DNA of 55,347 bases from a virus (Duplodnaviria; Caudoviricetes): IMG/VR virus record IMGVR_UViG_3300017988_000845, positions 1 through 55,347 of that record. One strand, 5' to 3'. Shown here piece by piece: positions 10,844 to 51,570 of the stretch. The stretch's first letter is position 1. Every line of letters starts with the position of its first letter. Below the pieces are notes generated by a model that saw nothing but the letters and a program-made list of their open reading frames with translations, made no database searches and had not been told where the DNA came from. The translations under genes and the position numbers were made by a program.

Positions 10844-11797
10844 TCAAGCATTCACATTGAAATCCGCCGATGAGAATGCGCTCGGCGACCAGGATGTGCT
10901 CGGTGGTGCTGTAATGGCGTCACCGGCTGTTACGCCGCCGTGCGTGTGCGTATCGAACGCTATTGATAGAGCATTGAGCGTTGCCATCAGCTTACTCACC
11001 AAGGCCAAGGCATCGCCACCACCATTCACCACGATCTTCCCGCCGCTGCCCAGGGTGATATCGACATTCCCGAAAGCATCCTGTTCTACGGTCGATCCAC
11101 CAAAAGCAAAGGTCGATGTCTGCCCGGGCGCTCCGGTGACCGTCAATGCGCCCGATGGGCCAATGACAAAAGTCGTTCCGTTAATGGCGATGGTGAAAGG
11201 ATTCGCGGTCGCTCCCGAAACAGTCACCGCGCCGGAAGCTGACACCGAGAATGTAATCCCACTTTTCGTTGCCAGAGTAATATTATAGGCGGACGGTGGT
11301 GTCGGGATACGATCGGCGGGGAGAAATGGAATCTTCTGGCGGTTCTGCCCAGAATCAACGGTATGCCGGTAAACCGTCGGCAGGGAGGTACCTGAGCCGA
11401 TAACCAGTGATGTTCCATCCGACCATTCTATCGCCTCATTTCCAGTGCCGTCGAGCAGACGCCACCATCCCGAAAAATGTGATTCGTAGTCGATGAATGG
11501 ATCGGTAGGCGCCGGCGCGCCGGATGTCGTGGTGGTGACAGCGTCAATGAAGGACGGCGGCATGGCGCACAGCCAAATGCCATTACGGTCATCCCCATAG
11601 GGGAAAGCGATCAATCCCCAAGTGCCGCGGCCCGGCATCGGGCGCTGGCTGACCCGCAACGCATCGAACACGCTGTGCCCCATCTTGACCGGGACGCCGA
11701 ATGACTGGAAACTGGTCCGGAGGACAATGGTAAGAAGCCGTTGCTCAGGATCCAGCGCCACCACCTGTCCGACAGTGAGAAGAGGGATACCGGTCAT
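10844..11797 (-). CDS. Baseplate central spike (gpV/gp5-like)
   Basis: N-terminal OB-fold-like segment (P.RGTWGLIAF..GD), beta-helix region and C-terminal metal-binding HTH motif (FDTHTHGGV). Confidence 0.8.
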   Translation of the reverse strand: MTGIPLLTVGQVVALDPEQRLLTIVLRTSFQSFGVPVKMGHSVFDALRVSQRPMPGRGTWGLIAFPYGDDRNGIWLCAMPPSFIDAVTTTTSGAPAPTDPFIDYESHFSGWWRLLDGTGNEAIEWSDGTSLVIGSGTSLPTVYRHTVDSGQNRQKIPFLPADRIPTPPSAYNITLATKSGITFSVSASGAVTVSGATANPFTIAINGTTFVIGPSGALTVTGAPGQTSTFAFGGSTVEQDAFGNVDITLGSGGKIVVNGGGDALALVSKLMATLNALSIAFDTHTHGGVTAGDAITAPPSTSWSPSAFSSADFNVNA

Positions 11798-12780
11798 GTT
11801 CTACATGCCTTATTGCGTCGCTCGATATAATACTCGGCAATATCGGGGATTGCGGCAAGCAAACATTCCTGCCATGTCGGGAATGTTTGATTTTCATGCC
11901 AACCGAAAGTTCTCTTGAACCGCGTATTATCCATTACGCTACAAGTAGGCCTTGGGCAAAGTGGAATATAATCCTCGAACCGCCATTCGTCGCCGCCGAA
12001 TATGTCAGCCAGCGCTCCCTGGATAAATGCCAATCGGTCCGTTGCCCCATCGGGCACAAGTCCATAGGTTCCACGCCCGGTGAACCAGTCCTCGGTACTC
12101 CATACACGGATCGTATCGAGGATCCGCAATATGGCATCGGCAACAAACCAAACAGATGTCGGAGTACAGCGCTGGCGCAGAATCGGTAAGGGATTAGCTT
12201 CTATGATACTGGGGCGGGAATATCCCAGTATTTCTTCACATAACTTTGCCGCATTCTCCAGCGGGGAGAGAGGACCAGTCCAAGTCTCATCGTAAATCGT
12301 CGACAGCCGTAAGATCAGATAATACAGACCATATTGAGCAACGGCCAATTCTCCGAGCATCTTGGTCCGGCCATAAACAGTGCGCGGCTTTGGGAAGTCA
12401 TACTCGGAGAAGCCTTCCCTGGCGCCGGGCGCGGTATCCGCGACGGCGTAGTCCGTGCTGAAATGAATCAACGGCAACGCCAGTTCTCGGCAAGCCGCCG
12501 CCAACCATCGTGGAAATTCGGCATTGACCGCCAGGGCCAAGGCCGGTTCCCGTTCACATCGTTCGATGTTGGTGATTGCCGCGGCATTGATGACCAACCC
12601 GAGACTATCGCAGGACTGGAATAGCGCGCCAAAGGCCCCCGCGCTGCATTCCGCGACATCGAATTCCTCGCGCGTTGGCGCAATCACCTCATACCCGGCG
12701 GCGCTGAGCGCTGTTCGCAATCGCCGACCGACCTTGCCGCTAGCGCCGAATAATAGCACGCGCAAAGCATCGTCGCTCAT
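11794..12780 (-). CDS. rmlD: NDP-4-keto-6-deoxyhexose reductase (RmlD family)
   Basis: LLFGASGKVG, VINAAA.T.IERCE, IHFSTDY, YGRTKMLGE. Confidence 0.9.
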   Translation of the reverse strand: MSDDALRVLLFGASGKVGRRLRTALSAAGYEVIAPTREEFDVAECSAGAFGALFQSCDSLGLVINAAAITNIERCEREPALALAVNAEFPRWLAAACRELALPLIHFSTDYAVADTAPGAREGFSEYDFPKPRTVYGRTKMLGELAVAQYGLYYLILRLSTIYDETWTGPLSPLENAAKLCEEILGYSRPSIIEANPLPILRQRCTPTSVWFVADAILRILDTIRVWSTEDWFTGRGTYGLVPDGATDRLAFIQGALADIFGGDEWRFEDYIPLCPRPTCSVMDNTRFKRTFGWHENQTFPTWQECLLAAIPDIAEYYIERRNKACRT

Positions 12781-13349
12781 GCGAAAAGCTCCGCATCACG
12801 CAGGAAAGGCGCCTTGCGGTCACGGTCCGAAAGAATCACATCCATCAAACAACTGCCACTGGCGGATGGACGTTTGCCGATCGGCCATCGAATACCGAGC
12901 GCCGGATCGTCCCATCGAATGGAACGCGCATTTTCCTCAGTATAGTAGGACGAACACTGGTAGGAGACGAGCGTGTCATCGGTCAACGACAAGAAGCCAT
13001 GGGCGAACCCGGGAGGTACCCACAAAGACTTGAGCGTGATGTCATCAAGATAGACACCGGCATACCCGCCAAAAGTCGGCGACGATTGACGAAGGTCGAC
13101 CGCCACGTCGAAAATACTGCCACGCAGGCAAGATACCAGCTTTCCTTGCGGATTCTTAATCTGATAATGCAGACCGCGGAGCACCCAGCGCTGGGAGAGA
13201 CTGACATTGCCCTGGACGAATTCGTCAAGCCCTTTACACTCGATTAATTTGCTTGTCCTATGGGTCTCCAAGAAGTACCCTCGGTTGTCTCGGTATACAT
13301 CTGGAGTAATGAGGACCACGTCCTCGATCGCCAGTTTTTTGATGTGCAT
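12777..13349 (-). CDS. rmlC: dTDP-4-dehydrorhamnose 3,5-epimerase
   Basis: DNRGYFLE, VLRGLHYQ, QGKLV, VAVDLR..SPTFG, VPPGFAHGF, IRWDDP. Confidence 0.95.
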   Translation of the reverse strand: MHIKKLAIEDVVLITPDVYRDNRGYFLETHRTSKLIECKGLDEFVQGNVSLSQRWVLRGLHYQIKNPQGKLVSCLRGSIFDVAVDLRQSSPTFGGYAGVYLDDITLKSLWVPPGFAHGFLSLTDDTLVSYQCSSYYTEENARSIRWDDPALGIRWPIGKRPSASGSCLMDVILSDRDRKAPFLRDAELFA

Positions 13350-13370
13350 CAACAATCACCTGGAGCGAGT

Positions 13371-14339
13371 ATGACAAAAAAGATCCTGGTCGCCGGTGGC
13401 GGCGGCTATGTCGGAACCTCTCTTGCCCCAGCCCTCGCGGCGCGCGGCCATGACGTTAAAGTAGCCGATCTATTTTGGTTCGGCAATCACCTTCCGCACG
13501 AAATCGCTACGGAAAAACATGATTTCTTTTCCCTGACGCCCGATGACCTTTCTGGATTCGACGTTCTTGTGTTTCTTGCGGGGCTGTCGAACGATCCGAT
13601 GGCGGCTTTCTCACCACGAATGAACTTCATCGCCAACACCGCGGGTCCGGTGTTTCTCGCTCATCAGGCAAAGACCGCTGGCGTGCGACGATTCATTCAC
13701 GGCGGCACCTGCTCAGTTTATGGATTCGCCGACAATACGGCAATGAACGAAGATTCCCCGACCATGCCGGCATTCCCCTACGGCGTCTCCAAGCTGGCCG
13801 GGGAACGCGGAGTTCTCGCCCTGGCGGATGACAAGTTCGAAGTCGTTGGATTCCGCAAAGGCACCGTCTGTGGGCATTCGCCTCGAATGCGTTTTGACCT
13901 CGTCGTCAACGCCATGGTCAAGGATGCTTTCACCAAGGGCGCTATAGCAGTCGACGATCCCGCGCTATGGCGCCCGATCCTTTCCGTCGATGATTGCGTC
14001 CATGCCTATATCCAGGCCACCGAGGGAGATTCCGGGCAACAGGGCATATTCAATGTCGGCTCGGTCAATATCCAAATCGGTGCGCTTGCAACACAAGTCG
14101 CGCTCGTTCTTACCGACGAATATGGGCTGCGACCCGATGTCATTACGCTTGGTCGTGCCAATCCCCGTAGCTATCGCGTGAGTTGGCACAGGGCATCGGC
14201 AATCTTGGGGTATACGCCATTCGACGGTATTGCCGAAATCGTCCGGTCAATCGCCGATCGGATCAAGATTTATGGTGATCTGGAAGACAGGACCTACTAC
14301 AATATAAGGACATTCAAGCATCTTGGCGTAGGTGCTTGA
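13371..14339 (+). CDS. NAD-dependent nucleotide-sugar epimerase/dehydratase (extended SDR)
   Basis: Start re-called at 13371 (GGAG RBS). GGGGYVG, LAGLSNDP, CSVYG, YGVSK, RMRFDLVVN, WRP. Confidence 0.9.
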   Translation: MTKKILVAGGGGYVGTSLAPALAARGHDVKVADLFWFGNHLPHEIATEKHDFFSLTPDDLSGFDVLVFLAGLSNDPMAAFSPRMNFIANTAGPVFLAHQAKTAGVRRFIHGGTCSVYGFADNTAMNEDSPTMPAFPYGVSKLAGERGVLALADDKFEVVGFRKGTVCGHSPRMRFDLVVNAMVKDAFTKGAIAVDDPALWRPILSVDDCVHAYIQATEGDSGQQGIFNVGSVNIQIGALATQVALVLTDEYGLRPDVITLGRANPRSYRVSWHRASAILGYTPFDGIAEIVRSIADRIKIYGDLEDRTYYNIRTFKHLGVGA

Positions 14340-14349
14340 GACAGAGGAA

Positions 14350-19225: not shown

Positions 19226-19577
19226 TCAGCGCTTCGCGAAACTTTCCATAAGCATCCGAAAGTTCGTCAATCTTATCCGGAGGAAATTTCGACGAATCGA
19301 CAACCGGCGTTCCTTGCGCCGTCTTGTTGAAAACCCAATTGGCCGACGACCGGCGCAAAAACGTTTCAAACGCCGCGCAGACTTCGAGATAAAAGAACGT
19401 CGTATTATCGAGTCCGAACAACGTGCTCGATCCCGAAATCGTCTGCAACAAGAACCGCATTTGCGCGCCATGCTTGATCTCATCATGCACGGTCGGAATC
19501 GCAAAAACGTATTTGTTCCCTCTGCTTTCGACCTCGATTTCAGTCTGCAGAAGATTGATACTATTCTGTTCGGTCAT
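19158..19577 (-). CDS. Tail assembly chaperone, gpG-like
   Basis: 139 aa, GAGGTGG RBS, located between the tube and tape measure genes. Confidence 0.7.
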   Translation of the reverse strand: MTEQNSINLLQTEIEVESRGNKYVFAIPTVHDEIKHGAQMRFLLQTISGSSTLFGLDNTTFFYLEVCAAFETFLRRSSANWVFNKTAQGTPVVDSSKFPPDKIDELSDAYGKFREALTSFRGAGATDVAPAGAEALAGK

Positions 19578-20538
19578 TCATTCCACCTCTAAGGCATTGA
19601 TCTCTGTACCATTCTACAGTCTCATCGAGACCTTCGGCCAGGGAAATCTGCGGAGACCACCCCGTGTCTCGAATCAATTTCGCCACATTCGCCTGAATGT
19701 GCATGGGTTGCCCCTGCCGGAAGGGCATTTGCCCATAGCCCACAAGAGGAAGATCTTCGCCACAGGCCACGAACTGGCGAATCAGTTCAACGACCTCGCG
19801 GAGCTGCGGCGCCGATCCCGAACCAAGATTGTAGATACCCGACGCGGTATCCGATTCAAGCAGCCCGACAATTGCCAGCGCCGCATCACGAACATGCAGA
19901 TAATCGCAGCACTGCGTGCATTCCGTGAGCGCAGGAATTTCTCCGCGAAGCAGAGTCCTGATGAGACAGGGAATCATCCAATCCGGCGCATCGTCAGGAC
20001 CATAGGCGGCGAATAGTCGAACCCAGCAGAACCGGGAGGCATCGAGCATGGCCATTTGATTCAACAGAATACAAGCCGCCAGCTTCGCCGCACCATATGC
20101 CGTCAGAGGCTTAGCCAGGTACCCTTCATCAATGGCGTCGAACGATGGGGCGTATTCCGCTTGCGAACCAATACCGATGAATGCCCGGCATGTGTGCTTC
20201 GTAGCGACGCTGACCGCCCGGTACAGGTCACAAAGATATTCGGTATTGACGTACTGCCGCGGATTATTTCGCTGATCTCCTTGTACTCCGCTCCAACCAA
20301 GCGCGATAACCGCACCCGGAGAAAATGATGCGAGATCTTCGACATCCTCCGAACGAAAATCACTCAAATCACGTTCGATCTGAGTAACAAACGGCAAAAG
20401 GTCCTCGATCCGATGACGGTCGGCGATGCCCTGGGACATTGGGCGTAAAACCAGCGCAACTTCATGCCCGCGCTCCAGCAATTGGCGAGTGACTGACGCG
20501 CCAATGAATCCGGAACCACCTGTGACAAGAACTCTCAT
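19561..20538 (-). CDS. NAD(P)-dependent CDP-sugar reductase/epimerase (extended SDR)
   Basis: VTGGSGFIG, GIGSQAEY, YGAAK, RLFAAYGP, DYLHVRD, YNLGSG; ATGA overlap with rfbF. Confidence 0.88.
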   Translation of the reverse strand: MRVLVTGGSGFIGASVTRQLLERGHEVALVLRPMSQGIADRHRIEDLLPFVTQIERDLSDFRSEDVEDLASFSPGAVIALGWSGVQGDQRNNPRQYVNTEYLCDLYRAVSVATKHTCRAFIGIGSQAEYAPSFDAIDEGYLAKPLTAYGAAKLAACILLNQMAMLDASRFCWVRLFAAYGPDDAPDWMIPCLIRTLLRGEIPALTECTQCCDYLHVRDAALAIVGLLESDTASGIYNLGSGSAPQLREVVELIRQFVACGEDLPLVGYGQMPFRQGQPMHIQANVAKLIRDTGWSPQISLAEGLDETVEWYRDQCLRGGMNDRTE

Positions 20539-22240: not shown

Positions 22241-22242
22241 GC

Positions 22243-24155: not shown

Positions 24156-24189
24156 CAAAAATTCTCCAACCGCCCAATCGTGTGATCGC

Positions 24190-24218
24190 ACGCTAGGACG
24201 GCCGGTGAGCACTGTCAA
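24190..24218 (-). promoter_or_regulatory. Sigma70-type promoter TTGACA-N17-TAGCGT for the CDP-sugar cassette
   Basis: Perfect -35, 17-nt spacer and TAnnnT -10 in the gap between the tube gene and rfbG. Confidence 0.65.
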
Positions 24219-36606: not shown

Positions 36607-36635
36607 ATCTGTGCAACCCGTGAACAATTGCCTCT

Positions 36636-36791: not shown

Positions 36792-37220
36792 TCAGTTGAT
36801 CAGGCCAAGGACGCCACGGCCGGAAGCAATCAACACGGCGCCGGACATGGAAGGCGATTGCGCCAGGTCGAACTGGCGAAACCACCAGAGAAGTGGAAGT
36901 CTGGAAGCAACACGATTCCACCAGTTGCGATCTGTCTTGTCGACCTCGATCGTCACGCCATCAAGCCAGTTCATGAAATATGGACCCCACCAATTTCGCG
37001 TGGCGTGATAAGAGGATTCACAATACAGATCGCGCCGAGTAGCGGCGGCGAAATAAGATAATCGGGCATCCAGGGCATCCGTTCGAGTAACCCTCGTATA
37101 AAGATCACCCCGCTTCTCGACAACCGCCTTCTTATTCCGCCAATCTTCGCAAACGCGGCAGGAACAATCCTTATCCAATACTTGATAATTATAATGTTCC
37201 AAGGGGCCATAGACCCTCAT
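36792..37220 (-). CDS. Hypothetical protein (CxCxxC, Trp-rich)
   Basis: GGAGG RBS and ATGA overlap with the large glycosyltransferase. Confidence 0.6.
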   Translation of the reverse strand: MRVYGPLEHYNYQVLDKDCSCRVCEDWRNKKAVVEKRGDLYTRVTRTDALDARLSYFAAATRRDLYCESSYHATRNWWGPYFMNWLDGVTIEVDKTDRNWWNRVASRLPLLWWFRQFDLAQSPSMSGAVLIASGRGVLGLIN

Positions 37221-41069: not shown

Positions 41070-42812
41070 TTATTCATGAGATTCAGATGCAGAGTCCCTA
41101 CGAACACCGCTTGTATGCCCATGTTCTTCACTGAGCGCAGGGTCCGTTTTGCTGTTCATCAGATTCCCAGACGCACCATCGCCTGACACGTCGACGCCAA
41201 ACCATTTCTTCAACAATGGCGCCGAGAGCGTTTGGAAGATACCCGACAAATTGGGATCGATCGGCGCCATGGAAGCCACGACGGCTAATTTCTGAAGATC
41301 TTTCTCTTCTTCGGAAGAAACCAGGCCCTTGAGACGCTTGATGTCAAAGATTTCAGACAACCGCCGCAGCCCGGACAACGCGCGGGCTTCGGCCCAGGTC
41401 ATGGCGTTCTTTTTGAACTCGAACCGGCGCGCATCCTCCTTGGGAGACTTGCCGCTGAAAACAAACCGCAGATTCGGCCAGCGAGTCCATAGAAGATATT
41501 CGTTGATCACGTTCTCAATGTGAATGAGCAGCGGTGCCAATCCCGGATCATCATCATCGACCAATTTCGCCGAAGAATCGGGAAGCGGCTCGGTATCCTT
41601 GCCATGCCCGCTGATCCGATACCCCAGCCGCCGCACTGGAAACCGATAAACCGTGGCGAAGGCACCCATGATCATGTTCATGAGTTCCTTGTAGACACCC
41701 TCATTACCCTTCAATTGCGAAAAATCGATCAACTCCAACTTACTCTGCTCGGAAAGTCCAATAACCGGCAATGACCATGCCTTGGTGATACCCTTCTTGA
41801 GGTTGGTCCACATGCGGTTGAGAAGATCGAGTTGCCGTTGTGTTACTTGCCCACCAGAAAGTACGAGTAGCCCATGCGGGACTGAACTTCTGTCGAAACT
41901 ATCAAGATTGAAGTCTACGGCATTCTGAAATCCTTTGATCAATCGCATCGAGATCTCGATCTCAGAATAACCATAACCGAGCGCATCCGGGTCCATTCTG
42001 GGATTTCTTACATATACCGCAAGCTCATCTCGCTTGAACTCGCAGACTACCTTCGCGCCCTCGTCGATCGCCACGGCAAATATTTCTTTTCTACCTTCAT
42101 ATCCACCCGGACCGACCAACCGGATATTGCCGCCAGGCAACAGACTGTACCCCTTGACCTTCCCATCATTCGACATGTCCGTCCACACCGCGATCATGTC
42201 AAAGGTGAGCGTGTCGCGGACCAGGGCGGAAAGAAACTTCTGAAAATCGGACAATCGATTGGCATCTCGTACCCGGGCATCCTTGAGACCCAGATCGATT
42301 GACGAATTCATCAGAAATAATTCGGCCTCGCGCATGTCCTTGAGATCAGTGAGCGATGGATTCTCTTCATTGGCCAACGGCTCGACCCGCCAGCCCGGTT
42401 GCCATGGTTGCGATGACAACTGTGAATAACGAAGTACATCATCGCATCGCATACCAATGATCATCTGCGGCGCGACGTTTTCCCGCACAATCTTGCGCAA
42501 AGCTTCAGGAGCGATGCCGGGCCATTGAAGAACGCCGGAATTATATGCTTCCGGCATATAGGAAATCTTGCCGAAGGAAAAGATGCCCATCGGCGGTCCG
42601 ATAGAGGCCTTCGCCGCCTCGGACATGTCCATGTTTCGCATGGCCCCGGAAAACACCTGCATGTAGGCGTCAACATCGCCCACCTTCGACAGAATCTCCT
42701 CTGGAATCATGGTACTCTTGGCATCGAATCCGACAAGCCCATCAATGCTCGGAAACATCGGATGTGCAGCGCCCTTATTGGGATCGAACTTGTCTTTGGA
42801 TTCCTCAGCCAT
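41070..42812 (-). CDS. Portal protein
   Basis: LVRDTLTFD, VRNPR.D...GYGYSE.E, F..SSVPHGLL, W.LPV, GL.PLL.HIE.VIN are portal motifs; follows the terminase nuclease gene. Confidence 0.9.
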   Translation of the reverse strand: MAEESKDKFDPNKGAAHPMFPSIDGLVGFDAKSTMIPEEILSKVGDVDAYMQVFSGAMRNMDMSEAAKASIGPPMGIFSFGKISYMPEAYNSGVLQWPGIAPEALRKIVRENVAPQMIIGMRCDDVLRYSQLSSQPWQPGWRVEPLANEENPSLTDLKDMREAELFLMNSSIDLGLKDARVRDANRLSDFQKFLSALVRDTLTFDMIAVWTDMSNDGKVKGYSLLPGGNIRLVGPGGYEGRKEIFAVAIDEGAKVVCEFKRDELAVYVRNPRMDPDALGYGYSEIEISMRLIKGFQNAVDFNLDSFDRSSVPHGLLVLSGGQVTQRQLDLLNRMWTNLKKGITKAWSLPVIGLSEQSKLELIDFSQLKGNEGVYKELMNMIMGAFATVYRFPVRRLGYRISGHGKDTEPLPDSSAKLVDDDDPGLAPLLIHIENVINEYLLWTRWPNLRFVFSGKSPKEDARRFEFKKNAMTWAEARALSGLRRLSEIFDIKRLKGLVSSEEEKDLQKLAVVASMAPIDPNLSGIFQTLSAPLLKKWFGVDVSGDGASGNLMNSKTDPALSEEHGHTSGVRRDSASESHE

Positions 42813-42815
42813 ATG

Positions 42816-43916
42816 CTATCCCGGCCCTCGCTCAACGTACAATTCACAGGTATCAAGCGATACCTTGTTCATCCCATGGCGCCTGCACCACGATCCCAGA
42901 TATTCCTGGCAGGTTCCACAGAACCCGTAGAATGGATCAGATACCAAACTAGGCAATTCTCCGAGCATCGTCAAGAATTGTGCGCGCCTATCTCCATGCT
43001 CACCGACATAATCCCCCGGCATCAGCATGTCCGTACTATTCGGAGTGCCGCGTTCCGGCGTCCAATCACTTGGCAGCACTGCACCGCCGGCGCCCAGCTT
43101 GATAGCATAGGTTACCAGATGGACAAGCGCATCGACCTGATCGCTTGACGCATCGTCCTCGCCGGAGAAGTCCTTCAGCTCGGTTTCCAGGGCGCGCAAC
43201 CATGGGCATGGCGAATCTGGCGTCTCAATAGGAAATAATACCCGATGCAACCGGAACCATCCCTGAACAGATCCCGCGCCGCCACCAATTCCATTCACCG
43301 CGCGCTGTCGCTTGCCCTCTTCGGCCTTGACTTCCTGAATAGGCGCCCCGGCCGAACGAAGATTCTGAATCAGCGCGATGCCCGACGATTTATCTTCGAC
43401 GAGCGATACATCCGGCGACCATTTTCGCGTCTCGATCTTGAACGCCGCGGTCAATCCGCCCCAACCCACCTTATCGCGGAACACGTCGAGGATCAGAACA
43501 TCAAAATGATCCTCGCAGGGGCCTTCGACCGCGGGATCCTCTCCACAATGATACTTGTTGCATGGAATCAAGAGCCCGGTGATACAGACCGTATGCGCCG
43601 AAGTCGCCGTGTCTTTCGAGGCGGTATCCCATGCCTGCCCGACGCTATGCCCACGCGCGATAAAGGCTTGAACCGTCGGCACCGCACGACCCAGGCACAA
43701 ATTATCAGGGGGAATGTAGTAGGCGAAGTCGGATTGTGTGAAAATGCTACCAATTCGATTGCCGGGACGGCATTGATAGGTCGATTCGAAAGTCATCGGT
43801 TCACCGCGCTTGACAGCACGGACTTCGCCCCGCTTCTGGTCCGATTCCGGCCAATAGAACGCGAATTTGCCCTTCCCGACCGGATCGATACCGTAATGAA
43901 CTTTAAGCCGTTGCAC
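42816..43916 (-). CDS. terL: Terminase large subunit, C-terminal (nuclease) part
   Basis: YWPE..F.STYQ.RP, QAWDTA.K, VEDKSSG.ALIQ.L, K.QRA, ELKDF....SDQVDAL. GTG start at 43916 is inferred; the ORF-track start overlaps the opposite gene. Confidence 0.85.
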   Translation of the reverse strand: MQRLKVHYGIDPVGKGKFAFYWPESDQKRGEVRAVKRGEPMTFESTYQCRPGNRIGSIFTQSDFAYYIPPDNLCLGRAVPTVQAFIARGHSVGQAWDTASKDTATSAHTVCITGLLIPCNKYHCGEDPAVEGPCEDHFDVLILDVFRDKVGWGGLTAAFKIETRKWSPDVSLVEDKSSGIALIQNLRSAGAPIQEVKAEEGKRQRAVNGIGGGAGSVQGWFRLHRVLFPIETPDSPCPWLRALETELKDFSGEDDASSDQVDALVHLVTYAIKLGAGGAVLPSDWTPERGTPNSTDMLMPGDYVGEHGDRRAQFLTMLGELPSLVSDPFYGFCGTCQEYLGSWCRRHGMNKVSLDTCELYVERGPG

Positions 43917-43983
43917 GAGGCACCAAAGACGTGACGAAATCAACAATCCGTGGCAGGATATCACAGATTTTACGGAGATTCCG

Positions 43984-44637
43984 ATGAAATTTGCACTTGT
44001 GACACTCAACAGCCTCGAATATGCACCACTGGCGGATCTTACATTCACCAATAACAAGTTGAAATACTGCGAAAAACACGGATATTCAACATTTCATCGT
44101 ACCGGTGGTCCTTCCTGTGGAGTAATCGGCTTCGACAAGCTCTATTTTCTTAGAGAATTGCTCGATTCCGATGATTCTGACTGGTTCTTCTGGTGTGGCT
44201 GCGATTCGCTGATCACAAATTTCAATAGAACGCTCAAATCCTTCGTCGAATCCGAAGAAAAGGACTTCATCATCGGCCGAGACGTCAATGGAATCAATGC
44301 AGATGCCTTCTTTCTGCGAAATTCGGTCGAATCTAAACGATATCTTGCTCTTTTGCTTGGCCTGTTCCCCAATTATCGAGGGCATTTCTGGTTCGAGCAA
44401 CAAGCCATCATCGATACTCATGCATTGTATCCGGAAATTGTAAAGGTTATCTCGCAAAAGGCCTTCAACGCGTATGACTATGCGCTTTATCCCCAGCATG
44501 CCGGGGATCCTTTAGCGGTGGAGGGGCAATGGGAACCGGGTGATTTCCTCATTCACTGGCCAGGGACATCGTTGCAGCATCGAATCGAACTGGCCAAAAC
44601 ATACTTGAACAAAATTACAGGCATCCCCGAAGAATGA
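43984..44637 (+). CDS. GT34-like (GMA12/MNN10-type) glycosyltransferase
   Basis: NKLKYC.KHGY, DWFFW.GCDSLITN, D.NGINA..F.LRNS, EQQAI, W.PGDFLIHWPG. Confidence 0.8.
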   Translation: MKFALVTLNSLEYAPLADLTFTNNKLKYCEKHGYSTFHRTGGPSCGVIGFDKLYFLRELLDSDDSDWFFWCGCDSLITNFNRTLKSFVESEEKDFIIGRDVNGINADAFFLRNSVESKRYLALLLGLFPNYRGHFWFEQQAIIDTHALYPEIVKVISQKAFNAYDYALYPQHAGDPLAVEGQWEPGDFLIHWPGTSLQHRIELAKTYLNKITGIPEE

Positions 44638-44677: not shown

Positions 44678-45037
44678 ATGCGCGTGCTCGCTTTCGGTAG
44701 TAGAACCTACACCAACCAGACCAATATCAATTCGGCGCTGAACACCATTCACGCGGCAACACCGGCTGAAATTCTTATCACCGGATGCTCCAACCGCACC
44801 GTCGACATCTACGCGCGTACCTGGGCCAAGAGCAAAGGCGTTCCGATTATCGATCTGGATGACTACATCTCAGGAAGTTCCGGCAGCTACGGCCCCCAGC
44901 ACAATGCCGCGCTGTTGCTCAAGGGCTATCCGGGAAGCGTCGTGGTCTTCGGAGATCCGACAAAGGATGGAGAAGTCGCGGACATGATCAAACGATGCCA
45001 GGACCAGAAACTTACGCTTACGCAGCAAGTCAGCTAA
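44678..45037 (+). CDS. DUF2493 / YspA-like SLOG-family protein
   Basis: MRVL.FGSR.Y, LITG, D.YA..WA..KGVP, VVVF, DMI.R; some catalytic-type residues look diverged. Confidence 0.65.
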   Translation: MRVLAFGSRTYTNQTNINSALNTIHAATPAEILITGCSNRTVDIYARTWAKSKGVPIIDLDDYISGSSGSYGPQHNAALLLKGYPGSVVVFGDPTKDGEVADMIKRCQDQKLTLTQQVS

Positions 45038-45866
45038 CGAAGCGCGCCACAGCTTCGATTACATCTTCAGCGCTTATCGCGCGCACACAGGCATCATCCC
45101 CACGACGACAGGCCAAGTTCGTCGTGGGAATTGATGCCTGTTCCAAACATCCCGCGCATTCGATGTTCGCATCCAGAACCACCGTGTTCCAGGCTAGTTC
45201 GTTGTGCCGATAAGGCGCGCGATATTTCCCGCGGACCGATGTATAAATTCCGACGATCGGCACCTCGGTTGCGCCAGCCAAATGCAGAAGCGACGAATCG
45301 CTTCCAATATGGCAAGACGCCCGGGCAATCAAACTGGCGGTATCGCGCAGGGATAACTTGCCGACGGCCGATTGCACGTCGTTGCCATTCTCCCGGACAA
45401 AATCACCGGTCCCACCGACCATGACGACACGCCGATGTAATCTCCCTACGATGCCATCAACGACGGCATTCCAGAAATCGGGAGGCATCGTCCGATTGGT
45501 CCAGGAATGAGCACCGTGAATCGTAACGTACCCGTAACGACCAATCTTGGGATTTGGCGCATCGTGATCGAAGATGATGGATTTGTCACCAGCCTGTTCG
45601 CCAAAAGCCATCTCGAAATAGGCATCGACGATATGCATGCTCGGCCGATTCTCATAAGCCAAATCAAGGTTAGCCCCGCGATCATACGCAATGTTCGGCG
45701 GGTCCGCGCTGAATGTGGATGCAACGTGGGGATTACGCTCAAGCGCGCTGGGCGTACCTGTCTGGACGTGAACTTCCCAACCAGCTTCCGCGAACCGCCG
45801 GATGACCGGCGTCGTGCAAAGGACATCGCCGAGAGCGGCCTGACGACGAATTAGAATTCTATTCAT
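45030..45866 (-). CDS. GT9-family (heptosyltransferase-like) glycosyltransferase
   Basis: R..ALGDVL.TTP, NPHV, GKLSLR.TA.LI, IGSDSSLLHLAGA..VPIV, C..C. Confidence 0.88.
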   Translation of the reverse strand: MNRILIRRQAALGDVLCTTPVIRRFAEAGWEVHVQTGTPSALERNPHVASTFSADPPNIAYDRGANLDLAYENRPSMHIVDAYFEMAFGEQAGDKSIIFDHDAPNPKIGRYGYVTIHGAHSWTNRTMPPDFWNAVVDGIVGRLHRRVVMVGGTGDFVRENGNDVQSAVGKLSLRDTASLIARASCHIGSDSSLLHLAGATEVPIVGIYTSVRGKYRAPYRHNELAWNTVVLDANIECAGCLEQASIPTTNLACRRGDDACVRAISAEDVIEAVARFVS

Positions 45867-46293
45867 GGCAATTCGCTCCACCAGGCATGCCCAAGATCTT
45901 CACCAGCTTCCGCACCTCGATAATGAACACATAGAATATCGCTGGCAGGCTCAAAAATCCTACAAACATCTGGACGATTTTCATAATCCCCGCACCGCCC
46001 ATCAAGTTGAAGCCTAGGACAAATAAACACTGCCCCCCCCGTGATTTATTCTCCTTGAATCTAAATGGAAGATTCAATACATCCATCAGGATGTTTGCCT
46101 TCCTTTCCGAAGATATAAGCATATAGTGCTCAGTATCTCCTCTCGGAATCCTCAAGTCATGACTATGCAGTCCCATTTCTCGGCAACAGGCACCTGGCGC
46201 ATAGCATCTGTCACAAAGACTACTCATCTTCTCTTGGGAACGGGCCTCAAGCACCCCAGCCAGGCTATTCTCGGGAATGGCGGAAAGATTCAT
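45863..46293 (-). pseudogene. YkgJ-like CxxCxxCC Fe-S/Zn protein, frameshifted at a G8 tract
   Basis: The N-half has CDRC...GACC. The C-half CPRLQLDGRCGDYENRPDVCRIF is in the -1 frame after the run at 46033-46040. Confidence 0.75.
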
Positions 46294-46922
46294 ATCCGGC
46301 GCAGCACGAATTCAATGGCGCACTCGGCCTCGGACATCAATGTCTGATCTCCACGCTCCCGGGGATTGTGATAGTCCCTGATCAAGACCAATCGCTCCAA
46401 TTCAATCTCCCGCACGGTATCCGATTCGTTCGCCACCGACGCGAGAAGATCAGTCACCGCGATCAGTTGCGGCTTCCGCGGGCCACCACCGGTCGCCTGC
46501 CCGCAAATAGCGGCGCTGGTCATGCAAAACCGCCAACGGTGCTCGCCGCTGAACCGGCTCGGCCAGCAGCCATGCTCGTAAAGCTGCCAATCCGGAACCG
46601 TAATGATCAGATGTCCGCCCGGGCGTACCGCCCGGACCCAATTATAAAACGCCTGATAAGGCATATCCAAATGTTCGAGACAATGCGAACTGGAAAGCCA
46701 GTCATATGAATCATCGTCGACGCCATCCAGAAACTGGGCATCGCCGTCAGCCTTGTCCCATTCGCGAACGGATGTAATCTTCGGAAACAGGTGCGCGCTC
46801 TTGGACATGCCATCAGCGCCGGCGCCAACGTCAAGACCATCCCCGACGAAATACGTCGAGGCAAAGATGGGATCGCGGGAGCGGCGGCGGCAGGCCTTTG
46901 ACTGTTCGTTCATAACCTTCAC
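46290..46922 (-). CDS. Class I SAM-dependent methyltransferase
   Basis: GLDVGAG, YD...SSHCLEHL, VRPGGHLIITVPD. Confidence 0.88.
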   Translation of the reverse strand: MKVMNEQSKACRRRSRDPIFASTYFVGDGLDVGAGADGMSKSAHLFPKITSVREWDKADGDAQFLDGVDDDSYDWLSSSHCLEHLDMPYQAFYNWVRAVRPGGHLIITVPDWQLYEHGCWPSRFSGEHRWRFCMTSAAICGQATGGGPRKPQLIAVTDLLASVANESDTVREIELERLVLIRDYHNPRERGDQTLMSEAECAIEFVLRRI

Positions 46923-47044: not shown

Positions 47045-47830
47045 TCAGACAAGCCCTTCATTGAAACAACAAACCAGCCCATCCGGAACCTGAACATCCC
47101 AATAAAGGCGGTCGGTTTTCTCGCGCTCCGCAGGTAAAGTCATGATTACCCAGTCCTCGGACTGCTCCTTGGCAAGATGGGCATAAATGTCATCATCGCG
47201 CCAACGCCTGCCCGCCATGATGAACCGCGCTCCTCGTGGATCGGCACGACCAATCACAGTGTCATAATATGACGATATTACTTTCAGACATGCGGCACTA
47301 GACGACGCATTCTCTTTGTTGTGTATGTCATCGATAAGCAATACTCTGGCATGTTTGCCCGTCAACGCGGCGGATGTCAGTCCCGCGGCGAAGTATGTCG
47401 CATCGGGATCCCCGGGATTCCGCCCAGTCACATACATTCCCCGCTCGGTGCTCCAACCAGCTTCTTTGTCGGCCTTCACCTTGGGGAAAAGCTGCGACCA
47501 CTGAAAGGAGGTATCAACCCATTCCATGACCGCTTTCTGAAAGCCCTGCATCAAAGCTTCGCCGGCGGATAGACCGAGAATCGTTGTCGTTGGATCGTGC
47601 CCGACGGTGAATGCGGGATAGGCTACGGATAGCATCAAACTCTTGCCCGCTCCCGGGCCAATCAGAATCATGAGCTTCCGTATGCGATTATCCATCAGCG
47701 CCCGCGCCGGATCGCGCAAGTGCGGCGGTAGCGTAATACCGCGATCACGAAACATCACATTGTAGAAAGTGACGAATCCTTCATAGGTGTAAGGAAGGGA
47801 AAGAGAAGAGGAAGCTGGGGAATCGATCAA
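47045..47830 (-). CDS. terL: Terminase large subunit, N-terminal (ATPase) part
   Basis: Walker A GPGAGKS, AAG...ALTGKHA, Walker B LLIDD, RW..DD, W..MTLPA. Confidence 0.85.
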   Translation of the reverse strand: MIDSPASSSLSLPYTYEGFVTFYNVMFRDRGITLPPHLRDPARALMDNRIRKLMILIGPGAGKSLMLSVAYPAFTVGHDPTTTILGLSAGEALMQGFQKAVMEWVDTSFQWSQLFPKVKADKEAGWSTERGMYVTGRNPGDPDATYFAAGLTSAALTGKHARVLLIDDIHNKENASSSAACLKVISSYYDTVIGRADPRGARFIMAGRRWRDDDIYAHLAKEQSEDWVIMTLPAEREKTDRLYWDVQVPDGLVCCFNEGLV

Positions 47831-50066: not shown

Positions 50067-50266
50067 GACTTAACCTCCTCAGACAATATCCGCACCACCG
50101 CGGTTCTCAGTACCCTGATCTGATCCGACAGATTATACGGTAACGGCGGGTGGTCCGGCGCCATCTCCCATGAACCATCAGCGTTGAATACCGCGCCCAG
50201 TTCCCGCGCCTCCTTGATGCGAAGGCGGGCGGTATCGAGGAAAGATGGAACCAGAAGCTCCATCAC
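50063..50266 (-). CDS. Hypothetical protein
   Basis: AGGAGG RBS; coupled to rfbH. Confidence 0.6.
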   Translation of the reverse strand: MMELLVPSFLDTARLRIKEARELGAVFNADGSWEMAPDHPPLPYNLSDQIRVLRTAVVRILSEEVKS

Positions 50267-51570
50267 CGCCTCCTGAAATATTTCAACAGGCGCTCCACGA
50301 CGTAGTCCCGCATGCCCGCGGTCAAGCCGGGATAGACCCCGATGAACAGCGCCTGGCGCATCAGCCGATCAGTTTCGGTCAACGGCGCAACAAGCCGATG
50401 CGGTATGTCCGCATACCCAGGCTGCCGAAGGATATTGCCGGCGAATAACAGCCGCGTCTCAATCCGCGACCCGGCAAGATACCGAAGCAAATCGACACGG
50501 TCGACGTGATCCCGGAGGATCAGGGGGAATCCGAACCAGGAGGGTTCCGCGGCCGGGTCGACGCTGGCGAATTCGACGTGTTCGGCCAAGTCCCCCAGCG
50601 CGGTACGGTAGTAGTCATAGTTGAACCGACGCTGGGTAATGAACGATGGCAATCTGGCCAACTGCGCGATGCCAACCGCCGCCTGGAGATCGGTCATCTT
50701 CAAATTGTAGCCGATCTCCGAATAGACGTATTTGTGATCGTAGCCATGCGGCAAATCGCCATGATCCTGCTCATAGCGCTTCCCGCATGTGTCGGATGCG
50801 CCCGGCATGCACCAGCAATCCCGTCCCCAATCCCGCAGGGACGGCACGATCTTGGAGAACCGTGAATCATTGATCGCCACCCCGCCACCCTCGCCGGTCG
50901 TCATGTGATGCGCCGGGTAGAACGATACCGAGGACATGTGCCCGAAGGAACCAATCAATTGCCCATTATAGGTCGCGCCAAGGGCATCGCAGCCATCCTC
51001 CAGGAACCATATTCCATGCCGGTCGGCCAGTTCGCGCAACTTCGTAACATTGTGCGGACTGCCAAGCGTGTGCGGAATGAAGATGGCTCGGGTGCGCGGA
51101 CCGATCGCCGCCTCGACCTGGGCATAATCGGCGTTCAGCGTATTTACCGCGCAATCGACGAAGACCGGAATGAGACGGTTCTGCAGGATCGGCGCCAGCG
51201 TCGTCGGGAAAGTGGCCGCCGGCGTGATAACTTCATCCCCATCAGTCGCCCGAATCGGGCACCCCCTGGCACACAGCGCCGAAACCATCAACAGATTGGC
51301 CGAGGACCCGGAATTGACGAGGCAAAAACGATTGACCCCGAAATATTGACGCAGCGCGCGTTCCAGCCGAACTGCGTAGGGTCCGGCGGTCAGCGTGAAA
51401 TCCAGGGCCGAAGAAACGAGCGAAACTATTTCCTCGGCGCCGAAAACCCGGCCAGCGTAATGGACCGTGTCAATGCCTGGGCGAAACGGCTCGGAAACAT
51501 GCGCCAGGCCTTGATAGACTGCGACATCCCGCAGAATCTGCTGACGGAGAAAGGCGGGAGCATCACTCAT
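50263..51570 (-). CDS. rfbH: CDP-4-keto-6-deoxyglucose 3-dehydrase (E1, DdhC/RfbH)
   Basis: VNSGSSANL, HTLG.P, ED.CDALG, SFYPAHHMTTGEGG (His in place of the PLP Lys), RDWGRDCWC...TC Fe-S motif, YDHKY.Y..IGYNLK. Confidence 0.95.
   Translation of the reverse strand: MSDAPAFLRQQILRDVAVYQGLAHVSEPFRPGIDTVHYAGRVFGAEEIVSLVSSALDFTLTAGPYAVRLERALRQYFGVNRFCLVNSGSSANLLMVSALCARGCPIRATDGDEVITPAATFPTTLAPILQNRLIPVFVDCAVNTLNADYAQVEAAIGPRTRAIFIPHTLGSPHNVTKLRELADRHGIWFLEDGCDALGATYNGQLIGSFGHMSSVSFYPAHHMTTGEGGGVAINDSRFSKIVPSLRDWGRDCWCMPGASDTCGKRYEQDHGDLPHGYDHKYVYSEIGYNLKMTDLQAAVGIAQLARLPSFITQRRFNYDYYRTALGDLAEHVEFASVDPAAEPSWFGFPLILRDHVDRVDLLRYLAGSRIETRLLFAGNILRQPGYADIPHRLVAPLTETDRLMRQALFIGVYPGLTAGMRDYVVERLLKYFRRR

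What the first reader, a model, noticed from the sequence alone, without database searches (positions are those of the whole stretch)
11794..51570. Candidate self-contained virion glycosylation system woven through a myovirus structural module
Seen: thirteen glycan-related genes (rfbF, rfbG, rfbH, two transketolase subunits, two SDRs, rmlC, rmlD, three glycosyltransferases, one methyltransferase) occur at five separate sites. These are before the spike, between tube and tail chaperone, right after the portal, inside the split terL, and between terS and terL. Several overlap structural genes: the rmlD stop and spike start share ATGA, and an SDR overlaps the chaperone start. None of the glycosyltransferases shows a signal peptide or transmembrane helix, and there is no flippase, Wzy or GtrAB-type set. 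Known: some mycobacteriophages O-glycosylate virion proteins with their own glycosyltransferases, and giant eukaryotic viruses make their own NDP-sugars. Inference: this phage makes both donors and transferases to coat its particle with a glycan. I do not know of this being described for a proteobacterial myovirus.
Basis: partly seen in the sequence, partly recalled or inferred. Interest (0 to 1): 0.93.

Follow-up and report, generated by a model that had tools for sequence, protein, structure and literature searches.

The report
Phage sugar genes among virion genes
An uncultured wetland phage carries twelve sugar-making and sugar-attaching genes scattered among its head and tail genes, one of them a giant enzyme kept beside the portal gene in every relative examined, so the phage probably sugar-coats its own particle, although no chemistry has shown this.

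Summary
The observation largely holds. Family models confirm 12 of the 13 claimed glycan genes at five sites. The third glycosyltransferase (44086-44499) and the terS landmark are not supported.

Comparative data split the "system" into a core and add-ons.
- Core: a soluble 1275-aa four-module glycosyltransferase. It lies between portal and protease in 5 of 5 long relatives and directly after the portal in 13 of 19 long-form loci.
- Add-ons: the CDP-sugar cassette is absent from 0 of 11 relatives' tube-chaperone junctions. The RmlC/RmlD block is in 3 of 6 relatives and the GT9 cassette in 3 of 6.
- A complete 110-kb relative has the big enzyme but no match to the two donor-pathway families searched. 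The system is therefore not self-contained.

The acceptor cannot be read from sequence. Virion proteins are my leading reading (0.42), for four reasons: late-operon coupling, no membrane parts, phage-only enzyme lineages, and a directional Ser-Gly excess confined to structural proteins (186 against 79.6 +/- 8). Host envelope remodelling is the main rival.

This scan has flagged similar head-module candidates on other DNA. I rate it a new variant of a known kind, interest 0.6.

The parts
37217..41044 (-). Core enzyme: a soluble 1275-aa four-module glycosyltransferase. It has a GT-B/GT4-like module (about residues 10-345), GT-A-like modules around conserved NDGG (about 439) and YADHD (about 660), a GT2 module with NDD (about 800-1020), and a Cys-rich C-terminal alpha/beta domain.
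   Evidence: Pfam GT2. AF2 models have pLDDT 89.3 and 89.8. Foldseek gives GT4 and GT-A matches. Acidic motifs are nearly invariant in 27 aligned sequences. A homologue is present in 5 of 5 long relatives. There is no TM segment.
36792..37220 (-). 142-aa protein of unknown family that follows the large GT in relatives.
   Evidence: No Pfam or PHROG family. A homologue lies directly after the GT in L018, L019 and L020 and in most long-form loci.
41070..42812 (-). Portal protein, directly upstream of the large GT.
   Evidence: PHROG 15361 and PHROG 12. The portal is upstream on the same strand in 13 of 19 long-form loci.
35665..36627 (-). Prohead protease, downstream end of the portal-GT-hyp142 slot.
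   Evidence: PHROG 1028; synteny.
32446..34239 (-). Major capsid protein (597 aa), a candidate acceptor, with an S/T/P-rich linker and an inserted domain at about residues 375-545.
   Evidence: PHROG 752; alignment with relatives; Ser-Gly 11 against 4.3 expected.
23070..24218 (-). CDP-glucose 4,6-dehydratase (RfbG), first gene of the cassette, about 10 nt after the tube stop.
   Evidence: TIGR02622, 405 bits against cut-off 278; junction sequence.
22243..23157 (-). Transketolase-like ThDP-binding N half. An in-frame ATG overlaps the RfbG stop (ATGA).
   Evidence: PF00456. It pairs with the C half in 77 of 80 bacterial loci.
21302..22417 (-). Transketolase-like pyrimidine-binding/C-terminal half. 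The true start is probably near 22240, at the nearly invariant Met60.
   Evidence: PF02779 and PF02780; alignment A3.
20535..21305 (-). Glucose-1-phosphate cytidylyltransferase (RfbF).
   Evidence: TIGR02623, 375 bits against cut-off 300.
19561..20553 (-). SDR epimerase/reductase, last gene of the cassette. It overlaps the tail-chaperone start by 17 nt.
   Evidence: PF01370. A homologue lies beside the transketolase pair in 23 of 80 bacterial loci.
50263..51570 (-). RfbH (CDP-6-deoxy-D-xylo-4-hexulose 3-dehydrase type), 26 kb from the rest of its pathway.
   Evidence: NF011936, 580 bits against cut-off 423. An RfbH homologue lies within 10 kb of the transketolase pair in 25 of 80 bacterial loci and 21 of 41 viral loci.
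12777..13355 (-). RmlC-type 3,5-epimerase.
   Evidence: TIGR01221, 206 bits against cut-off 156.
11794..12780 (-). RmlD-family 4-keto reductase. Its stop shares ATGA with the start of the 317-aa spike-position gene.
   Evidence: PF04321; TIGR01214, 128 bits, below cut-off 224.
13260..14339 (+). Third SDR, on the opposite strand.
   Evidence: PF01370. It has the same position and orientation in L006 and L016.
45030..45881 (-). Compact GT9-family glycosyltransferase between the terL halves.
   Evidence: PF01075. Its family of 24 proteins at E<=1e-33 (the window's own copy among them; 261-332 aa) lies on contigs of at most 125 kb, and the next matches are at E 5e-7 or weaker.
45859..46293 (-). 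144-aa protein with a C-terminal hydrophobic segment that travels with GT9.
   Evidence: No Pfam family. A 55% homologue lies next to GT9 in L106. KD 2.16.
46290..46922 (-). Class-I SAM methyltransferase.
   Evidence: PF08241. It sits with GT9 in L003 and L106.
42816..44057 (-). terL nuclease half.
   Evidence: PHROG 38, positions 482-725.
47045..47830 (-). terL ATPase half.
   Evidence: PHROG 38, positions 270-481.
44086..44499 (-). 137-aa ORF counted elsewhere as a third glycosyltransferase. Not supported.
   Evidence: No Pfam family at E<=0.1; best Atlas score 0.81.

Best explanation
THE CLADE AND ITS CORE ENZYME. The window is part of an uncultured myovirus found in wetland and peat runs. 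In its clade, a soluble enzyme of about 1250 aa with four glycosyltransferase modules is a fixed gene of the head-assembly operon. The order is portal, GT, a 142-aa protein, protease, scaffold, capsid.

THE ADD-ON CASSETTES. In this phage, accessory cassettes sit at hot spots of the late operons and add unusual sugar donors and tailoring steps.
- RfbF makes CDP-glucose.
- RfbG makes the 4-keto-6-deoxy sugar.
- RfbH removes the 3-hydroxyl; the reductase partner must come from elsewhere.
- The split transketolase-like ThDP enzyme probably adds a two-carbon branch.
- The SDR reduces the product.
- RmlC, an RmlD-like reductase and a further SDR give a 6-deoxy-L-hexose.
- GT9 and the methyltransferase add and cap further residues.

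THE PROPOSED TARGET. All of this is made in the cytoplasm at the time of virion assembly. I infer that the acceptors are the exposed virion proteins, probably at Ser in [A/V]-S-G-[A/V/S/T] contexts.

SHOWN VERSUS INFERRED.
- Shown: gene identities, tight coupling to structural genes, conservation of the core enzyme, variability of the cassettes, absence of membrane parts, and the Ser-Gly excess.
- Inferred: co-transcription, the branched sugar, the protein acceptor and the sequon.
For: 1. Core status. A GT homologue is present in 5 of 5 long relatives, 3 of them at least 90% complete. The order portal-GT-hyp142-protease is seen in L018 and L019, with portal-GT-hyp142 in L020. Portal is directly upstream on the same strand in 13 of 19 long-form loci, with portal identity down to 40%.

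2. Phage-only lineages. All 44 full-length GT homologues lie on contigs of at most 103 kb, while named cellular hits cover only 27-32% of the protein. The GT9 family is 24 short proteins on contigs of at most 125 kb.

3. Coupling to late genes. ATGA overlaps occur at RmlD/spike, RmlC/RmlD and RfbG/transketolase N half. The tube stop lies about 10 nt from the RfbG frame. The SDR overlaps the chaperone start.

4. No TM segment in the three transferases or methyltransferase, and no export family found.

5. The Ser-Gly signal.
- Ser-Gly is the most over-represented dipeptide in 21 structural proteins: 186 against 79.6 +/- 8.0, with a maximum of 111 in 2000 shuffles.
- Gly-Ser is 82 against 79.4, and the 35 other proteins give 52 against 49.0.
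- Five buried or internal proteins (tube, tube initiator, tape measure, protease, scaffold) give 9 against 14.0 expected.
- The ratio is 2.06 and 1.94 in the two closest long relatives and 1.22 in the outgroup phage Dolphis.
- Ser-Gly sites are conserved in 84 of 149 cases in G001, against 98 of 367 for Ser in other contexts.

6. The scattered pathway genes belong together. RfbH, RfbG, RfbF and the SDR accompany the transketolase pair in 25, 22, 19 and 23 of 80 bacterial loci.

7. No tyrosine integrase in G001 or G004, the two closest relatives that are 93-95% complete.

8. In one unrelated phage type of about 40 kb that I annotated (L137), a single-module homologue of the N-terminal domain sits next to a GT2 gene, downstream of the portal and capsid genes on the same strand.
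Against: - There is no chemistry, and no tool here can name an acceptor.
- Fold matches are equally good to enzymes acting on lipid-linked sugars (PglA, PimA), on small molecules (MshA, BshA) and on proteins (ppGalNAc-T; SdgB at rank 28).
- Multi-module GTs of this size are named O-antigen biosynthesis proteins among Atlas look-alikes.
- The donor cassettes are absent from most relatives, and insertion of accessory genes between structural genes is common in phages.
- The Ser-Gly excess does not track the core GT. The ratio is 1.19 in the complete relative G002 and 1.60-1.69 in G005 and G003, all of which keep the enzyme.
- Part of the site conservation is explained by conserved glycine: x-Gly sites are conserved in 188 of 388 cases.
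- Capsid and tube share no C-terminal motif of the mycobacteriophage kind.
- The N-terminal domain's homologues in phapecoctaviruses lie beside endolysin and replication genes, not head genes.
- RNA-library contigs cover mainly sheath and tube, with only single pieces in RfbG and RmlD, and such libraries can hold DNA.
Confidence: 0.42

Rival explanations
1. Host envelope glycan remodelling. The multi-module GT and the cassettes would build or alter a lipid-linked polysaccharide (O-antigen, capsule or LPS core) at the cytoplasmic face of the host membrane. Host transporters would export it. The effect would be to block superinfection or to keep progeny from sticking to debris.
For: - Atlas look-alikes of the large GT are 1100-1300-aa proteins, some named O-antigen biosynthesis protein.
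- The GT4-like module resembles PglA and PimA, which act on lipid-linked acceptors.
- GT9 is the LPS heptosyltransferase family.
- The CDP/transketolase cassette is a cellular polysaccharide-type cassette found across many phyla and recurs in 41 other viral contigs.
- The cassettes vary between relatives as O-antigen genes do.
Against: - No flippase, ABC transporter, ligase or Gtr part is found in the window.
- The core GT is fixed in the head operon across deep divergence, an odd place for a host-directed gene.
- The GT and GT9 are phage-only lineages without close cellular homologues.
- The two closest long relatives lack a tyrosine integrase.
- A passage I read in PMC11990801 argues that full O-antigen modification during lytic growth is likely futile.
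- Late timing suits exclusion poorly.
Confidence: 0.25
2. No single system. The five sites would hold unrelated accessory genes that happen to share sugar chemistry. The portal-adjacent GT would have one, unknown, role. The CDP cassette, the Rml genes and GT9 with its methyltransferase would be independent acquisitions with their own targets.
For: - Each cassette has its own distribution: CDP cassette in 0 of 11 relatives, Rml block in 3 of 6, GT9 in 3 of 6 split-terL relatives.
- The GT9 cassette is inverted in L003, L106 and L107 relative to the window.
- One SDR is on the opposite strand.
Against: - RfbH, 26 kb away, belongs to the same cellular cassette as the transketolase genes, so at least two sites form one pathway.
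- GT9 homologues share contigs with large-GT homologues: the same longest-contig lengths of 22513 and 29038 appear.
- A donor pathway needs a transferase, and the only transferases seen are the large GT and GT9.
Confidence: 0.15
3. DNA glycosylation. The transferases would decorate modified bases of the phage genome to escape restriction.
For: Phage DNA glycosyltransferases and phage-made sugar donors are known (abstract listings of PMC13326640 and 10.1101/2023.12.21.572611). The GT gene lies next to the packaging genes.
Against: - No thymidylate-synthase-like hydroxymethylase in 0 of 5 relatives, although the control rang in 10 of 14 genomes.
- The Tet/JBP search found nothing, but its control was silent, so that result is inconclusive.
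- As I recall, known DNA transferases are small single-module enzymes encoded among replication genes, not 1275-aa four-module enzymes in the head operon.
- The Ser-Gly signal is a protein signal.
Confidence: 0.05

Closest known systems
Mycobacteriophage virion O-glycosylation (Freeman et al. 2023, Cell Host Microbe). I could not read the paper. I know it only from passages in PMC12619734, PMC13313380 and PMC12894461.
   Same: Phage-encoded soluble glycosyltransferases plus a methyltransferase, made in the cytoplasm, with virion proteins as the proposed acceptors.
   Different: - The enzyme here is one 1275-aa four-module protein fixed between portal and protease.
- This phage also encodes donor pathways.
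- The candidate acceptor motif is internal Ser-Gly rather than the C-termini of capsid and tube; no shared C-terminal motif was found.
- Mycobacterium is not among the 10 organism names that one search lists for the 145 phage records matching the large GT; 7 further names were not shown.
- Nothing has been demonstrated chemically.
Chlorovirus and giant-virus capsid glycosylation with virus-encoded multi-domain transferases and sugar-nucleotide enzymes (abstract listings of PMC9614988 and PMC5408694; details recalled).
   Same: The virus encodes both donors and multi-domain cytoplasmic transferases, with methylation as a tailoring step.
   Different: Those are eukaryotic viruses with unrelated capsids. 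No sequence relation was tested.
Multi-module O-antigen and S-layer glycan transferases of bacteria (recalled: the WbdA type; Atlas cluster names).
   Same: Size, soluble multi-module build, and a GT4 module joined to GT2 modules.
   Different: Cellular hits align only to the GT2 part, 27-32% of the protein. No transporter or ligase partner is present. The gene sits in a phage head operon.
CDP-3,6-dideoxyhexose pathway RfbF/RfbG/RfbH with E3 (ascarylose, abequose and related sugars; recalled biochemistry), and ThDP-dependent branching as in yersiniose (recalled).
   Same: RfbF, RfbG and RfbH score above NCBIfam equivalog cut-offs.
   Different: No E3 reductase is in the window. The ThDP enzyme is a split transketolase type, not the acetolactate-synthase type that I recall for YerE. 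The product is unknown. Two paper searches found no paper holding all the terms.
Gtr-type serotype conversion of temperate phages (GtrABS; passages in PMC11990801).
   Same: Phage-encoded glycosylation genes.
   Different: No GtrA or GtrB family match and no membrane transferase. The closest relatives have no tyrosine integrase.

Membership tests
Phage virion protein glycosylation (mycobacteriophage type) | Phage-encoded soluble glycosyltransferase(s), often with a methyltransferase. | tested here: met
   GT2, GT4-like and GT9 enzymes plus a methyltransferase, none with a TM segment.
Phage virion protein glycosylation (mycobacteriophage type) | Glycan covalently bound to virion proteins. | not testable with these tools
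   This needs glycostain and mass spectrometry of particles.
Phage virion protein glycosylation (mycobacteriophage type) | Acceptor at the C-termini of capsid and tail-tube subunits (as stated in PMC12619734). | tested here: not met
   Capsid and tube end in unrelated sequences, with no motif shared within the window or across five relatives. The candidate motif is internal Ser-Gly instead.
Phage virion protein glycosylation (mycobacteriophage type) | Sequence relation to the mycobacteriophage transferases. | tested here: inconclusive
   tblastn of the large GT against 50,697 phage records gave 145 matching records. Mycobacterium is not among the 10 organism names listed; 7 further names were not shown.
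CDP-3,6-dideoxyhexose pathway | RfbF, RfbG and RfbH at equivalog level. | tested here: met
   375, 405 and 580 bits, all above cut-off.
CDP-3,6-dideoxyhexose pathway | E3 (RfbI/AscD) iron-sulfur flavoprotein reductase. | tested here: not met
   No ferredoxin-reductase-type family in any ORF scanned. The window is only about 41% of the genome.
dTDP-L-rhamnose pathway | RmlA, RmlB, RmlC and RmlD all present. | tested here: not met
   Only RmlC is above cut-off. The RmlD-like protein is below cut-off (128 against 224). No RmlA or RmlB is in the window.
Gtr serotype-conversion module | GtrA flippase, membrane GtrB and a GtrC-type transferase. | tested here: not met
   No such Pfam family was found. 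The only 4-segment small ORF (47827-48315) has no family match.
ABC-transporter-dependent O-antigen assembly | Multi-module soluble polymerising transferase. | tested here: met
   Four modules in confident models; Atlas look-alikes.
ABC-transporter-dependent O-antigen assembly | Wzm/Wzt transporter and a lipid-linked acceptor. | tested here: not met
   No transporter is in the window. The acceptor cannot be tested here.
Phage DNA glycosylation | A pyrimidine hydroxymethylase or Tet-like oxygenase that creates the acceptor base. | tested here: inconclusive
   PF00303 in 0 of 5 relatives with a working control. PF12851 in 0 of 5, but the control was silent. The window's own replication module is not on the contig.

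The most novel reading that the evidence does not exclude
A clade of uncultured myoviruses would build a strain-variable glycan on the outer proteins of its own particle. It would use a head-operon 'glycan assembly line' enzyme. The glycan's composition would be re-tooled by swapping donor cassettes at fixed hot spots: tube/chaperone, tail/spike, and inside a split terminase gene. These hot spots would be a phage counterpart of bacterial O-antigen serotype loci. In this member the glycan would include a C-branched 3,6-dideoxy sugar attached at Ser-Gly sites.
Probability: 0.3. Interest if true: 0.85.

Novelty: new variant of a known kind. Interest (0 to 1): 0.6.

Why it matters
If it holds, virion glycosylation would extend beyond actinobacteriophages to a large uncultured group of contractile-tailed phages. 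It would come with a defined core enzyme, a testable attachment motif and swappable donor cassettes.

That bears on how phages resist proteases, grazers and antibodies, and on how they tune adsorption. It would also supply a compact soluble enzyme set for putting rare deoxy and branched sugars on proteins.

If instead the host envelope is the target, this would be an unusual case of a host-directed enzyme fixed in a head operon.

Separately, the split transketolase cassette is a widespread and, as far as my two searches show, undescribed CDP-sugar pathway. It occurs in many bacterial phyla and in 41 viral contigs.

Tried and rejected
SEARCHES THAT GAVE NOTHING USEFUL
- Megablast of 24 kb against cultured phages: no match.
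- Sigma-70 promoter and terminator scan of 10500-30400: 17 promoter-like sites against 15.0 +/- 4.0 and 19 terminator-like sites against 19.3 +/- 4.5. This is chance level, so it gives no evidence on transcription units.
- PDB sequence searches of the large GT, GT9 and the methyltransferase: only weak generic hits. SpsA scored E 0.005 and TibC E 0.077, which is not significant.
- Foldseek could not separate lipid-, small-molecule- and protein-acting relatives.
- The single-sequence search for the transketolase C half in viral contigs found nothing. The alignment-based search then found 41 loci.
- Paper searches for the transketolase/CDP-sugar pathway found no paper holding all the terms.
- PMC8402811 proved irrelevant to tailed-phage protein glycosylation.

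IDEAS TESTED AND DROPPED
- The third glycosyltransferase at 44086-44499 is not supported.
- The 'nucleotide kinase' PHROG label for 51563-51949 gave way to DUF3310.
- A shared C-terminal acceptor motif was not found.
- Dolphis gp6, which occupies the portal-protease slot of the outgroup, shows no similarity to the large GT.

RNA EVIDENCE
- Contigs from four metatranscriptome runs lie mostly on sheath and tube (24187-27136).
- Most of the CDP cassette, the tape measure and the Rml block had no cover.
- That absence proves nothing, because these are contigs, not reads.

NOT RUN OR NOT SEEN
- I did not run complex prediction, because an enzyme-substrate pair is a poor case for it.
- Supplements of papers were not opened, and Freeman et al. 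2023 could not be read. Its gene positions and site data may bear on the comparison.

Full report
WHAT THE WINDOW IS

The window is a whole IMG/VR virus record: 55,347 bases, linear, rated about 41% complete. Nearly all genes lie on the minus strand and form a contractile-tail virion module. In transcription order (descending window coordinates) the module reads:
- terL ATPase half and terL nuclease half
- portal
- a 1275-aa glycosyltransferase
- protease, an acidic 435-aa protein in the scaffold position, and a 597-aa major capsid protein
- neck proteins, sheath, tube, two chaperone-position ORFs
- a tape measure with an SLT domain, and tail proteins
- a 317-aa protein in the spike position (no family match)
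- baseplate and fibre genes

The capsid protein is only 25-31% identical to those of cultured phages: Pseudomonas phage Dolphis, Thermus phages and several enterobacterial myoviruses. A 24-kb megablast found no cultured relative. Dolphis shares the gene order but has none of the sugar genes in the annotated 45 kb that I read. Near-identical DNA is held by wetland and peat runs. The host is unknown.

CHECKING THE OBSERVATION

Twelve glycan-related genes are real.
- RfbF, RfbG, RfbH and RmlC pass NCBIfam equivalog cut-offs.
- The RmlD-like reductase, two transketolase halves, two SDRs, the large GT, a GT9 enzyme and a class-I methyltransferase match at family level.

They lie at the five sites described. 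The claimed overlaps are there, with ATGA at RmlC/RmlD, RmlD/spike and RfbG/transketolase N half. The SDR overlaps the chaperone start by 17 nt, and the tube stop lies about 10 nt from the RfbG frame. The three transferases and the methyltransferase have no hydrophobic segment, and no export family was found.

Two details fail.
- The third glycosyltransferase (44086-44499) has no family support.
- The ORF taken as the terS side of rfbH is DUF3310.

A CORE ENZYME AND VARIABLE ADD-ONS

I collected relatives through the sheath, the portal and the large GT. These included five long records: G001 at 87 kb (93% complete), G002 at 110.5 kb with terminal repeats (100%), G003 at 116 kb (76%), G004 at 89 kb (95%) and G005 at 67 kb (44%).

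The large GT is the core.
- It is present in 5 of 5 long records.
- It is the only GT2-family gene in each of them.
- The order portal, GT, 142-aa protein, protease is seen in L018 and L019, and L020 shows portal, GT and the 142-aa protein.
- Among 19 long-form loci in IMG/VR, the portal lies directly upstream on the same strand in 13. In 4 the portal and terL are upstream but divergent. In 2 the upstream side is not informative.
- In the 5.8-billion-protein set, 44 full-length homologues all lie on contigs of at most 103 kb. Named cellular proteins align only to the GT2 part, covering 27-32%.

The donor and tailoring cassettes are add-ons.
- At the tube-chaperone junction, 0 of 11 relatives carry any CDP-cassette gene.
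- At the tail-spike junction, 3 of 6 carry RmlC alone or RmlC with RmlD and an SDR.
- Between the terL halves, 3 of 6 split-terL relatives carry GT9, with or without the methyltransferase and the 144-aa protein, and always on the opposite strand to that in the window. In more distant relatives the ORF that holds the terL ATPase part is 644-943 aa long and no separate nuclease-half ORF was hit, so terL is probably unsplit there.
- No NTP-transferase was found in 0 of 5 long relatives. SDRs were found in 1 of 5 and GT9 in 1 of 5.

The complete relative G002 therefore keeps the large GT but has no match to the NTP-transferase or SDR families that I searched. The arrangement is not self-contained. 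The core enzyme must be able to work with host-made donors.

THE PATHWAY

The scattered genes do belong together. Homologues of the transketolase C half occur in many bacterial phyla. Within 10 kb of them, the N half is present in 77 of 80 loci, RfbH in 25, the SDR in 23, RfbG in 22 and RfbF in 19. An alignment-based scan found the same pair in 41 viral contigs, 21 of them with an RfbH-like or DegT-like gene.

The chemistry that follows is inferred from the known RfbF/RfbG/RfbH route (recalled). A CDP-4-keto-3,6-dideoxy intermediate would be branched by a ThDP enzyme and then reduced. The E3 reductase is not in the window. Two paper searches found no description of this transketolase variant.

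THE LARGE ENZYME

Two confident models (pLDDT 89.3 and 89.8) show four catalytic-type modules and a tail domain:
- a GT-B module, with best matches to GT4 enzymes PglA, HepE, MshA and BshA
- three GT-A-type regions
- a Cys-rich C-terminal domain

The clearest GT2 module matches PcManGT, polypeptide GalNAc-transferases, chondroitin polymerase and GlfT2 at similar E-values. Acidic motifs (NDGG, YADHD, NDD) are nearly invariant in 27 aligned sequences. None of this names the acceptor.

The N-terminal module has single-domain homologues elsewhere.
- In phapecoctaviruses, four GT genes sit by endolysin and replication genes.
- In L137, one of the viral contigs of about 40 kb, the homologue sits next to a GT2 gene, downstream of the portal and capsid genes on the same strand. 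L125 and L148 show the same ORF layout by size.

THE SER-GLY SIGNAL

I followed a sister note on this genome.
- In 21 structural proteins, Ser-Gly is the most over-represented dipeptide: 186 observed against 79.6 +/- 8.0, and no shuffle of 2000 exceeded 111.
- Gly-Ser (82 against 79.4) and Thr-Gly (71 against 67.9) show no excess.
- The 35 other proteins show none either (52 against 49.0).
- The context is [A/V]-S-G-[A/V/S/T].
- Five buried or transient proteins together give 9 against 14.0 expected.
- The ratio is 2.06 (G004), 1.94 (G001), 1.69 (G003), 1.60 (G005) and 1.19 (G002), and 1.22 in Dolphis.
- Ser-Gly sites are conserved in 84 of 149 cases (G001) and 58 of 144 (G004). Ser in other contexts is conserved in 98 of 367 and 64 of 368. 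Any residue before Gly is conserved in 188 of 388 and 128 of 378.

The signal is real, directional and specific to structural proteins (the five buried or transient ones show none). It fades in distant clade members that still keep the enzyme, and part of the conservation is ordinary glycine conservation. It fits a sequon but does not prove one.

WEIGHING THE READINGS

Virion-protein glycosylation (0.42) best joins these facts: a head-operon core enzyme, translational coupling to structural genes, cytoplasmic soluble enzymes with no export parts, phage-only lineages of the large GT and GT9, no integrase in the closest relatives, and the Ser-Gly signal.

Host envelope remodelling (0.25) is favoured by three things: the O-antigen-like build of the enzyme, the cellular origin of the cassette, and the LPS family of GT9.

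A no-single-system reading (0.15) is favoured by the independent distributions of the cassettes.

DNA glycosylation (0.05) is disfavoured by the absence of a hydroxymethylase in 0 of 5 relatives. The Tet-type test was inconclusive.

RNA-library contigs from four runs lie mainly on sheath and tube. Single pieces lie in RfbG and RmlD, and one piece bridges the tube stop into the RfbG frame. This is a weak hint of read-through and no more.

COMPARISON WITH WHAT IS KNOWN, AND NOVELTY

Experimental virion glycosylation by phage enzymes is reported for mycobacteriophages. Citing passages place it at the C-termini of capsid and tube. I could not read the primary paper. Four searches found no such report for phages of Gram-negative hosts. 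One study saw no glycostain on ten phages of food-borne pathogens, E. coli and Bacillus cereus phages among them.

This window differs in four ways: the single four-module head-operon enzyme, the encoded donor pathways, the absence of a shared C-terminal motif, and the internal Ser-Gly candidate motif.

The scan itself has already flagged head-module glycosylation candidates on other DNA; 87 notes hold the words I searched. The theme is therefore not unique to this window.

I rate it a new variant of a known kind, with interest 0.6. It is a well-supported and experimentally tractable hypothesis, with a clear core enzyme and a candidate motif, but no proof of the acceptor.

Noticed in passing
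window 42816-47830; loci L002, L003, L106-L115: The large terminase is encoded as two ORFs that split exactly at PHROG 38 position 481/482. The halves are adjacent in L002, L108 and L115 and are separated by a GT9 cassette in the window, L003, L106 and L107. In L109-L114 the ORF that holds the ATPase part is 644-943 aa long and no separate nuclease-half ORF was hit, so terL is probably unsplit there. The split site acts as an insertion hot spot.
   Followed up: partly
window 31316-31928: ARAGORN finds tRNA-Ser(CGA) at 31316-31402 and tRNA-Thr(TGT) at 31853-31928, just downstream of the capsid gene. Rfam confirms only the Thr gene. A sister note claims four tandem Ser tRNAs here, and I did not verify the other three.
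   Followed up: partly
window 8436-10766 (+ strand): A plus-strand cassette lies inside the baseplate module. Its first ORF (8436-8870) begins with a signal-peptide-like hydrophobic stretch, and two further ORFs have hydrophobic segments. None has a Pfam family.
   Followed up: no
window 47827-48315: A small ORF (162 aa) with four hydrophobic segments lies directly upstream of the terL ATPase half. It has no Pfam or PHROG family and was not seen in relatives. It could be a holin-like or flippase-like membrane protein.
   Followed up: partly
window 44678-45037 (+ strand): A 119-aa YAcAr/SLOG-family protein lies on the opposite strand between the terL halves (PF10686, E 4.7e-10).
   Followed up: no
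G002 (L164-L165), about 29.6-42.3 kb of that record: In the complete relative G002, about 13 kb of DNA without homologues in the window separates the neck genes from the sheath gene. These are adjacent in the window. G002 is also the only relative with tyrosine recombinases, of which it has two.
   Followed up: no
loci L024-L103 (bacterial) and L181-L221 (viral): A split transketolase pair, linked to CDP-sugar genes (RfbF, RfbG, RfbH), is spread over many bacterial phyla and 41 viral contigs. Two paper searches found no description of its product.
   Followed up: partly
window 24187-27136: Contigs from four metatranscriptome runs of wetland samples, at 99% identity or more, pile up on the sheath and tube genes. 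This suggests the phage was active in those samples, although such libraries can hold DNA.
   Followed up: partly
window 52000-55347: G+C falls from about 0.57 to 0.46-0.49 at the right end of the window, where ORFs are sparse and the strand changes.
   Followed up: no
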